Source: a virus (taxonomy: Duplodnaviria; Heunggongvirae; Uroviricota; Caudoviricetes). From it: a stretch of DNA of 64,000 nucleotides. The first letter of the stretch is position 1. Each line of letters begins with the position of its first letter. The notes under the pieces were generated by a model. The model did no database searches, was not told the DNA's origin, and worked only from the letters and a program-made list of their open reading frames with translations. The translations under genes were made by a program, and so were the position numbers. Below, piece by piece: positions 60,532 through 60,599 of the stretch. The DNA lies in the IMG/VR virus record IMGVR_UViG_3300021255_001602, positions 64,001-128,000 of that record; one strand, given 5' to 3'.

Positions 60532-60599
60532 ACAGGACGCTTTGTTTTGGTTATATAGATTAAAAGTCTATTCCTAAATAATTTTGCTGTAAGCGTCCC
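60532..60599 (-). ncRNA. CAGCAA-module RNA E1 (stand-alone) displaying a Lys(UUU) anticodon stem-loop
   Basis: GGGACGCTT/AAGCGTCCT stem, ACAGCAA, ATAGACTTTTAATCTAT. Confidence 0.8.

What the first reader, a model, noticed from the sequence alone, without database searches (positions are those of the whole stretch)
60532..60599. Non-tRNA RNA displays an exact copy of the phage tRNA-Lys(UUU) anticodon arm
Seen: ATAGACTTTTAATCTAT occurs at 60555-60571 inside E1 and at 59671-59687 in tRNA-Lys. E1 has no D, T or acceptor arms, so it cannot be a tRNA. Known: tRNA-Lys(UUU) anticodon loops are targets of PrrC and of the PARIS effector AriB. Inference: an anticodon decoy or repair template held on the Ro-like ring.
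Basis: partly seen in the sequence, partly recalled or inferred. Interest (0 to 1): 0.85.

Follow-up and report, generated by a model that had tools for sequence, protein, structure and literature searches.

The report
Phage Ro-like RNA displaying lysine anticodon arm
A 66-base phage RNA that is not a tRNA holds out a lysine-tRNA anticodon arm on a conserved "handle" that travels with a Ro60-like ring protein in many phages. It probably works as bait for proteins that recognise that tRNA, but its exact match to the phage's own tRNA is a local coincidence.

Summary
An 18-nt stretch, the whole Lys(UUU) anticodon arm, is identical in E1 (60555-60571) and in the phage tRNA-Lys (59671-59687). E1 is not a tRNA.

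E1 belongs to a large family of phage small RNAs. They share a handle: a 7-9 bp closing stem, the motif CUUACAGCAA, and a 3' CUG. The handle carries a variable cargo. The family sits beside a DUF2828 protein in 87 of 94 protein-anchored loci. That protein's predicted structure matches Ro60 over its full length.

The Lys arm recurs in more than 100 viral contigs and keeps its pairing through compensatory changes. It does not co-vary with the phage's own tRNA-Lys: stem identity is 4.79/10 within a locus and 4.64/10 between loci. The exact copy is therefore lineage-specific.

Other family members display Ser, Asn, Cys, Thr or Ile anticodon loops, T arms, or whole permuted tRNAs.

Best reading: a Y-RNA-like partner of a Ro-like protein that presents a tRNA-Lys anticodon arm as bait, plausibly against anticodon nucleases. 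This function is inferred. Expression of E1 was not shown, and the repair-template idea has no support.

This scan met the family before on other DNA: 56 notes in at least 55 genomes. I found no published description of the phage family. The closest Rfam family is the Dictyostelium Class I RNAs.

The parts
60532..60599 (-). E1, a stand-alone small RNA of the stem-ACAGCAA handle family, about 66 nt. Its ends are inferred from the closing stem and the conserved 3' CUG(U).
60591..60599 (-). P1 5' strand (GGGACGCUU). It pairs with 60534-60542. The outermost pair is G-U.
   Evidence: All 7 aligned P1 pairs show compensatory changes in 53 relatives
60584..60593 (-). Conserved handle motif CUUACAGCAA. 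ACAGCAA is invariant, and the first 3 nt lie in P1. This is the candidate protein-binding site.
   Evidence: Invariant in alignments A1 and A3. It matches the Rfam RF01414 consensus 10 of 10.
60555..60571 (-). Displayed anticodon arm: AUAGA, then CUUUUAA, then UCUAU (Lys UUU type). It is identical to the arm of the phage tRNA-Lys.
   Evidence: The stem pairs covary.
60534..60542 (-). P1 3' strand (AAGCGUCCU), followed by the conserved tail G60533 U60532
59640..59715 (-). Phage tRNA-Lys(UUU). Its anticodon arm lies at 59671-59687.
   Evidence: ARAGORN and Rfam, 70.6 bits
62148..63656 (-). Gene for a 502-aa DUF2828/DUF7788/vWA protein with a Ro60-like fold. The ATG at 63656 follows an AAGGAG ribosome-binding site. 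The MIDAS motif DxSxS..T..D is invariant.
   Evidence: Pfam. AF2 model with pLDDT 93. Foldseek finds Ro60/TROVE. Invariant columns.
61495..61557 (-). E2, the same handle displaying AAGA-CUUGAAA-UCUU (Ser UGA-type loop)
61182..61268 (-). Same handle displaying a Cys(GCA)-type arm plus a T arm
63676..63755 (-). Same handle (GUGACAC/GUGUCAU) with a T-arm-like hairpin, directly upstream of the DUF2828 start codon
63889..63943 (-). E3, the same handle with a 5-nt-loop hairpin and no anticodon-like loop
63971..64000 (-). 3' part of a further family member that runs past the window end (L005 971-1061). It follows tRNA-Gln and a consensus promoter.

Best explanation
E1 is a Y-RNA-like partner RNA of the phage's Ro60-like (DUF2828) protein and is built from two modules. 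The handle is the 9-bp closing stem, the single-stranded CUUACAGCAA and the 3' CUG. It is inferred to dock on the protein, as the Y RNA stem docks on Ro60. The cargo is a short helix topped by a 5-bp/7-nt arm whose loop, CUUUUAA, is that of tRNA-Lys(UUU).

E1 is probably cut out of a long tRNA/small-RNA transcript of the - strand. The particle then presents the arm to a protein that reads the tRNA-Lys anticodon arm. The most likely targets are host anticodon nucleases or other tRNA-directed defence enzymes, which the arm would bait, occupy or sequester. The vWA/MIDAS domain or the ring might hold the captured partner.

Shown: the sequence identity, the family, the covariation, the gene linkage and the Ro60-like fold. 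Inferred: binding to the protein, processing, expression of E1, and the anti-defence role.
For: The family is real. The handle occurs 6 times on one strand around the gene here. In 87 of 94 loci anchored only on the protein there are 279 modules, against 20 in reversed-sequence controls, and 250 of 273 lie on the gene's strand.

The reverse test also holds. An RNA-only pattern retrieved at least 116 viral contigs, and 51 of these short loci hold a DUF2828 homolog. Of 5 contigs checked further, 3 carry the gene elsewhere, and the other 2 are fragments 29-53% complete.

The structure is supported. 95.1% of cells pair, against 70.3% in shuffles and 33-43% in slid controls. All 7 P1 pairs and the 3 free arm pairs show double changes. 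L009 carries a compensatory A-U to U-A change in the E1 ortholog. A flanking 3-4 bp helix averages 3.89 bp against 2.80 +/- 0.16 in shuffles.

The cargo is anticodon-like beyond chance. C-U-NNN-A-A loops make up 42 of 183 seven-nt hairpin loops in short modules, against 1.1% in flanking DNA. Lys UUU is the commonest.

The protein has the Ro60 fold, with TM 0.47-0.59 and E about 1e-8 to Ro60 from Xenopus, human and phage phiLo.

Literature. Y RNAs tether Ro60 to effectors, and YrlA mimics tRNA (PMC4201824). A Ro60-like protein encoded just upstream of the tRNA genes of phage Bas63 counters the ppl defence system (PMC11482910). tRNA-Lys(UUU), tRNA-Thr and tRNA-Asn are PARIS targets (PMC12409363). 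A P100-like Listeria phage makes three very abundant unannotated RNAs within 2 kb upstream of its Rsr-like gene (PMC12282133). A related phage has three handle modules in that position.
Against: There are no binding, expression or cleavage data for E1. RNA-library contigs covered neighbouring elements but not E1.

The arm is AU-rich and is not the minimum-energy fold.

About 60% of short family members show no anticodon-like loop. The family's common job therefore cannot be anticodon-specific.

AriB needs D-loop contacts as well as the arm (PMC12409363), so a bare arm may be a poor ligand for that enzyme.

The only experimental anti-defence link for this protein family is to ppl, which is not known to cut tRNA. 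That Bas63 gp130 is a DUF2828 ortholog is my inference from Felixounavirus synteny.

A decoy needs abundance or very tight binding, and neither is known.
Confidence: 0.55

Rival explanations
1. Adaptor rather than decoy. The arm recruits a normal host tRNA-Lys-reading enzyme to the Ro-like particle for the phage's benefit. Candidates are lysyl-tRNA synthetase, the wobble-uridine or t6A37 modification enzymes, or a processing nuclease. Deinococcus Y RNA recruits PNPase in this way.
For: This is the established logic of Y RNAs (PMC4201824). The phage phiLo Ro60 and its Y-like RNAs bind host PNPase (PMC12135203). Many family members carry T arms or whole permuted tRNAs, which suits general tRNA enzymes as well as it suits nucleases.
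Against: It gives no obvious reason why Lys, Asn, Thr and Ser arms recur, whereas several of these are known nuclease targets (PMC12409363). No partner enzyme is encoded nearby here.
Confidence: 0.2
2. The handle is not the Ro-like protein's binding site. It is a processing or stability signal shared by RNAs of phage tRNA arrays, and the gene linkage is only co-residence in the same accessory region.
For: Modules lie inside tRNA arrays and sometimes several kb from the gene. No binding was tested.
Against: The modules hug the gene, often within 100 nt of its start, in phages with few or no tRNA genes in the locus (L010, L011, L013, L016). The pairing holds down to 28-40% protein identity and in phages of Escherichia, Mycobacterium, Listeria, Staphylococcus, Campylobacter and Bacillus.
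Confidence: 0.1
3. E1's arm is a leftover. A tRNA-Lys fragment was captured when the handle was grafted into or recombined with a tRNA gene, and it is not itself under selection.
For: The handle also occurs grafted into tRNA bodies in this window and elsewhere. Here the arm equals the neighbouring tRNA's arm.
Against: Lys-type arms recur in at least 100 contigs with diverse stems that keep pairing through double changes. The loop is kept in orthologs whose stems have changed. There is no co-variation with the resident tRNA-Lys.
Confidence: 0.07
4. Translation-directed mimic. The arm enters the ribosomal decoding site at AAA/AAG codons and modulates host or phage translation.
For: From general knowledge, isolated anticodon stem-loops bind the 30S decoding site in a codon-dependent way. 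The loop is canonical.
Against: Nothing in the data points to the ribosome. A bulky ring protein on the handle would clash. Many cargos are T arms or non-anticodon hairpins.
Confidence: 0.04
5. Repair template or guide for mending cleaved tRNA-Lys.
For: Bacterial Ro60/Y RNA genes share an operon with the RtcB ligase (PMC7790460). Listeria phage List-36 has RtcB-like and RNA ligase genes within 5 kb of its DUF2828 gene.
Against: An identical strand cannot base-pair with the broken tRNA, and no templated tRNA repair is known. RtcB and Rnl2-type searches of this 140-kb genome were negative, and the Rnl1 search was uninformative.
Confidence: 0.03

Closest known systems
Bacterial and phage Ro60 (Rsr) with Y RNAs, especially YrlA (Chen et al. 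2014, PMC4201824; phage phiLo Ro60 with Yrl1/Yrl2, PMC12135203)
   Same: A ring-shaped Ro60-fold protein with a vWA domain is encoded next to small RNAs. The 5' and 3' ends of each RNA form a stem beside a conserved single-stranded motif, and a second module mimics tRNA. Some family members carry a permuted tRNA (T arm, closed acceptor, D arm), exactly as YrlA does.
   Different: The protein is DUF2828, not Pfam TROVE, with about 10-15% identity to Ro60. The motif is ACAGCAA, not GNCGAA or GGUCCGA. No Rfam Y RNA or YrlA model matches. E1 displays the anticodon arm, which is the part YrlA lacks. Many paralogous RNAs with different cargos occur per genome.
Dictyostelium Class I RNAs (Rfam RF01414; Kjellin et al. 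2021, PMC7919456)
   Same: Size is similar (42-65 nt). A short stem with compensatory changes joins the ends. An 11-nt motif sits next to the 5' strand, and its consensus CUUACAGCAA equals E1's 10 of 10. The 3' end is CUG(U), and the rest is variable.
   Different: The score of 23.4 bits is below the gathering score of 41.5. Class I RNAs are known only in social amoebae, have their own promoters, bind the RRM protein Rnp1A, and are not reported to carry anticodon arms or to partner a Ro-like protein. Whether the likeness is homology or convergence is open.
Phage tRNAs that defeat tRNA-cutting defences (T5 tRNA-Lys/Thr/Asn against PARIS, PMC11464382 and PMC12409363; T5 tRNA-Tyr against a retron, 10.1101/2023.03.15.532788)
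   Same: A phage-encoded RNA carries the anticodon arm of a tRNA species that defence nucleases attack.
   Different: Those are complete, chargeable tRNAs that replace the cut host tRNA and carry resistance substitutions. E1 cannot be charged or decode, so it could act only as bait or inhibitor.

Membership tests
tRNA | Cloverleaf with acceptor, D and T arms, detected by ARAGORN or the Rfam RF00005 model | tested here: not met
   ARAGORN makes no call. RF00005 gives 17.1 bits against a gathering score of 29. Only the anticodon arm is present.
Y RNA / YrlA (Ro60 partner RNAs) | Gene lies next to a Ro60-type gene | tested here: met
   E1 lies 1.5 kb from a gene for a Ro60-fold protein. The family is linked to that gene in 87 of 94 loci.
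Y RNA / YrlA (Ro60 partner RNAs) | Terminal stem carrying the Ro-binding motif (GGUCCGA or GNCGAAN0-1G) | tested here: not met
   A terminal stem is present, but the conserved motif is CUUACAGCAA.
Y RNA / YrlA (Ro60 partner RNAs) | Match to the Rfam covariance models | tested here: not met
   No Y RNA or YrlA hit at E up to 10 in 57500-64000
Y RNA / YrlA (Ro60 partner RNAs) | Physical binding to the Ro60 ortholog | not testable with these tools
   Needs a gel shift or co-immunoprecipitation
Dictyostelium Class I RNA (RF01414) | Short end-joining stem, an 11-nt motif next to the 5' strand, a 3' CUGU, and a length of 42-65 nt | tested here: met
   Alignment to the model consensus: motif 10 of 10, stem and CUG aligned, 66 nt
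Dictyostelium Class I RNA (RF01414) | Score at or above the Rfam gathering threshold | tested here: not met
   23.4 bits against 41.5. E is 0.013 on 131 nt and 0.67 on 6.5 kb.
Ro60 / TROVE proteins (for the partner gene) | Helical-repeat ring plus a C-terminal vWA domain with a MIDAS site | tested here: met
   AF2 model with pLDDT 93. The top 13 PDB hits are all Ro60 or TROVE over the full length. DxSxS, T and D are invariant.
Ro60 / TROVE proteins (for the partner gene) | Match to the Pfam TROVE domain | tested here: not met
   Only DUF2828, DUF7788 and VWA_2 match at E up to 0.01. A sequence search of the PDB found nothing.
Anticodon-nuclease decoy (functional class) | Binds or is cut by a tRNA-Lys-directed nuclease and relieves its toxicity | not testable with these tools
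   The loop and positions 36-40 (UAAUC) match the PARIS AriB site, except that position 41 is U rather than A (PMC12409363).

The most novel reading that the evidence does not exclude
Phages carry a Ro60-like particle with a plug-in library of tRNA pieces on one common handle. E1 is the lysine anticodon-arm cartridge, and its job is to bait and neutralise tRNA-cutting immune nucleases. The same handle in Dictyostelium Class I RNAs would then mark an ancient RNA-protein docking system shared by viruses and eukaryotes.
Probability: 0.25. Interest if true: 0.9.

Novelty: new variant of a known kind. Interest (0 to 1): 0.75.

Why it matters
tRNA-cutting enzymes are a major class of bacterial immunity. 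The only RNA-based phage answer known so far is to bring spare tRNAs. A protein-held anticodon-arm mimic would be a second, different answer.

It would also give the widespread DUF2828 protein a concrete role. That protein occurs in 696 cultured phage records and about 6400 clusters at 50% identity. It would give Ro60-type particles such a role in viruses too.

The cargo list (Lys, Asn, Ser, Cys, Thr, Ile) could serve as a map of which tRNAs host defences attack.

The handle's identity with the unexplained Class I RNAs of social amoebae offers a testable lead for a 20-year-old orphan RNA class.

Tried and rejected
- Megablast of 57500-64000 against cultured phages found no close relative.
- A sequence search of the PDB with the protein found nothing. 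Only the fold search was informative.
- Single-sequence folding of E1 was not informative: z-score -0.5, and the MFE does not form the arm.
- RNAalifold on the MAFFT alignment recovered only P1. The arm and P2 needed a named structure and a register-free script.
- Promoter and terminator scans were no better than shuffles, and E1 has no promoter of its own.
- Searches for RtcB and Rnl2-type ligases in the own genome found none. The Rnl1 search was uninformative because its control did not ring.
- Metatranscriptome contigs laid on 59600-63700 did not cover E1. Being contigs, they prove nothing about absence or strand.
- The AFDB cluster search returned DUF2828/DUF7788 relatives without organism names. 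It could not tell whether Dictyostelium has the protein.
- A guessed accession for phage Bas63 proved to be Bas27. That gp130 is an ortholog therefore rests on Felixounavirus synteny.
- Literature searches for DUF2828 and for the motif string found no description of the RNA family.
- Five cultured phages examined (Listeria, Vibrio, Staphylococcus, Campylobacter, Bacillus), plus phiSUSP1 and a mycobacteriophage, carry the handle family. None has a Lys-type member in the stretch fetched.

Full report
**1. The observation.** Read on the - strand, window 60599-60532 starts with GGGACGCUU and ends with AAGCGUCCU-GU. Inside lies the hairpin AUAGA-CUUUUAA-UCUAU at 60571-60555. The same 17 nt, 18 with the preceding A, form the anticodon arm of the phage tRNA-Lys(UUU) at 59687-59671. 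ARAGORN and Rfam both call that gene. E1 itself is not a tRNA. ARAGORN is silent, and the Rfam tRNA model gives 17.1 bits, below its threshold of 29.

**2. E1 is one of a family.** Three elements in the window drew weak hits to the same Rfam model. They align over a closing stem whose middle pair covaries (G-C, A-U, U-A) and over an invariant ACAGCAA. A pattern search and a script found six stand-alone copies on the - strand around one gene. One of them runs past the window end. The same stem-plus-motif also occurs as a closed hairpin grafted into tRNA bodies. The whole array follows a consensus promoter just beyond the window. It has no convincing internal promoters or terminators, so E1 is probably processed from a long transcript. 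That step is inferred.

**3. The partner gene.** The gene at 63656-62148 encodes 502 aa that match Pfam DUF2828, DUF7788 and weakly VWA_2, but not TROVE. An AlphaFold2 model built on 62 diverse homologs has pLDDT 93 and pTM 0.92. Its 13 best PDB matches are all Ro60 or TROVE structures over the full length. They include Xenopus and human Ro60 and the Ro60 of Thermus phage phiLo (TM 0.47-0.59, E down to 1e-8). Reviewed AlphaFold entries give the same answer. The MIDAS residues of the vWA domain are invariant. The family is large: 6447 representatives at 50% identity and 696 cultured phage records. In mycobacteriophages annotators already call it a Ro-like RNA binding protein.

**4. Linkage of RNA and protein.** I fetched 94 loci on the protein alone, with identity from 90% down to 28%. 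Of these, 87 hold at least one module. There are 279 modules in all, against 20 in reversed-sequence controls, and 250 of 273 lie on the gene's strand. In distant phages the modules sit within a few hundred bases upstream of the start codon.

The reverse test used an RNA-only pattern: ACAGCAA, a gap, then the Lys loop with one flanking pair on each side. It retrieved at least 116 viral contigs, and 104 of 120 hits have the closing stem. Of these mostly short loci, 51 contain a DUF2828 homolog. Among five that did not, three carry the gene elsewhere on the contig, and the other two are fragments 29-53% complete.

The family is also present next to the gene in cultured phages of Escherichia, Mycobacterium, Listeria, Staphylococcus, Campylobacter and Bacillus.

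**5. Structure of the Lys-type members.** In 53 distinct sequences, 95.1% of cells of the named structure pair. Column shuffles give 70.3%, and sliding the partners gives 33-43%. All seven closing-stem pairs and the three arm pairs not fixed by my search pattern show double changes. Two arm pairs are never unpaired. A further 3-4 bp helix flanks the arm, averaging 3.89 bp against 2.80 +/- 0.16 in shuffles. In E1 it is only two G-C pairs. The E1 ortholog in L009 has a compensatory A-U to U-A change. Single-sequence thermodynamics do not favour the arm, so the case for it is comparative.

Among the five closest relatives, the tRNA-Lys stem equals the E1 stem only in L006. That tRNA also has a different loop base. 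L009 differs at one pair, and L007, L008 and L046 differ entirely. Across 41 loci that hold both a Lys-type module and a phage tRNA-Lys(UUU), stem identity is 4.79 of 10 within a locus and 4.64 of 10 between loci. Exact stems occur in 0.76% of unrelated pairs. The AUAGA/UCUAU stem is the commonest stem of the module family in distant phages (12 of 53). The exact copy is therefore a feature of this lineage, arising by chance or by a local conversion. Selection maintains the loop and a short AU-rich stem, not identity to the phage tRNA.

**7. Cargo diversity.** In the unbiased sample, C-U-NNN-A-A loops make up 42 of 183 seven-nt hairpin loops in short modules, against 1.1% in flanking DNA. The sequences are related, so the binomial p-value overstates the case. 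The commonest loops are Lys UUU (12), Asn GUU (9), Ser GCU (6), Ser UGA (4) and Cys GCA (3). Thr GGU and Ile GAU also occur. Other members carry T arms or a whole circularly permuted tRNA, which is the YrlA plan. About 60% of short members have no anticodon-like loop. The handle is thus a general carrier, and E1 is its lysine-arm version.

**8. Mechanism.** By analogy with Ro60 and Y RNA (PMC4201824, PMC12135203), the handle docks on the protein and the cargo engages a second protein. An anticodon arm of tRNA-Lys(UUU) is what PrrC and PARIS AriB read. AriB cuts after U36-A-A-U-C (PMC12409363). E1 has that pentamer, followed by U rather than A at position 41. PARIS also attacks tRNA-Thr and tRNA-Asn, and arms of both amino-acid types recur as cargo. 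The Thr arms I saw are GGU-type, whereas AriB cuts tRNA-Thr(UGU) and (CGU). In phage Bas63, a Ro60-like protein encoded just upstream of the tRNA genes counters the ppl defence system (PMC11482910). Felixounaviruses carry the DUF2828 gene in exactly that position, with handle modules behind it. A bait or sequestration role against tRNA-directed defence is therefore the best-supported function.

It remains an inference, for these reasons:
- AriB also needs the D loop.
- ppl is not known to cut tRNA.
- E1's expression was not shown.
- Many cargos are not anticodon arms.

The adaptor model, in which the arm recruits a normal tRNA enzyme, is the main rival. The repair-template idea fails on mechanism, and RtcB and Rnl2-type searches found no RNA ligase in this genome, with the Rnl1 search uninformative. 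Some phages do place the gene near RtcB-like ligases.

**9. What is known.** The idea of a phage Ro-like protein with Y-like RNAs exists in outline: mycobacteriophage annotation, Chen et al. 2014, and speculation in PMC11482910 and PMC12282133. I found no description of the stem-ACAGCAA handle family, or of anticodon-arm cargo, in Rfam or in the paper library.

The nearest Rfam family is the Dictyostelium Class I RNAs. Their consensus stem, their CUUACAGCAA motif and their 3' CUG match E1's handle, although the score is below threshold (PMC7919456).

Earlier notes of this scan describe the same family on other DNA: 56 notes in at least 55 genomes. One of them raised the Class I lead, which I re-tested here. 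I class E1 as a new variant of a known kind, a Ro/Y-type particle with tRNA mimicry. It has a different protein family, a different docking motif, and the anticodon arm as the mimicked part.

Noticed in passing
window 61897-62156 (- strand): The roughly 250-nt non-coding stretch just downstream of the DUF2828 gene contains a closed-hairpin copy of the handle: a GCGUCAUG strand, a loop, a GUGACGC strand, then CACAGCAAU. It is the most deeply covered part in RNA-library contigs of four runs from three studies. Rfam has no match, so a longer handle-bearing RNA of unknown kind may be abundant.
   Followed up: partly
window 63760-63882, 61275-61390, 61055-61170 (- strand): Three tRNA-shaped genes carry a 43-57 nt insert in or instead of the anticodon arm. 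The insert is the same handle, closed on the opposite side. Distant phages L010 and L011 have the same arrangement.
   Followed up: partly
window 60080-60200 (- strand): A tRNA-like gene has intact acceptor, D and T arms but about 50 extra nt between the anticodon region and the T arm, and no CAGCAA motif.
   Followed up: no
window 61393-61480 (- strand): An 88-nt type II-like tRNA that ARAGORN calls Thr(UGU) has an irregular anticodon loop. It lies directly after E2 and does not reach the Rfam tRNA threshold.
   Followed up: no
window 59034-59375 (- strand): A 113-aa protein consists only of the NAD+-binding Ia domain of NAD-dependent DNA ligases (Pfam Nlig-Ia, E 2e-29). It is encoded 265 nt downstream of tRNA-Lys. 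A free-standing Ia domain is unusual.
   Followed up: no
L218 (Listeria phage List-36) 5654-5916 and 8843-12555: Three handle modules sit directly upstream of the DUF2828 gene. Genes annotated as tRNA splicing ligase, RNA ligase and metal-dependent phosphohydrolase lie within 5 kb downstream. A related phage makes three very abundant unannotated RNAs in this area (PMC12282133).
   Followed up: partly
L012 9600-9712; L216 about 4520-4640; L215 7424-7560: These family members have as cargo a circularly permuted tRNA: T arm, an acceptor closed by a loop, then D arm. This is the YrlA architecture on the ACAGCAA handle, seen in a metagenomic phage, a mycobacteriophage and E. coli phage phiSUSP1.
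   Followed up: partly
window 60533-60598, 61494-61556, 63888-63942: The handle equals the consensus of the Dictyostelium Class I RNAs (RF01414). Whether dictyostelids have a DUF2828 protein could not be determined with the tools at hand.
   Followed up: partly
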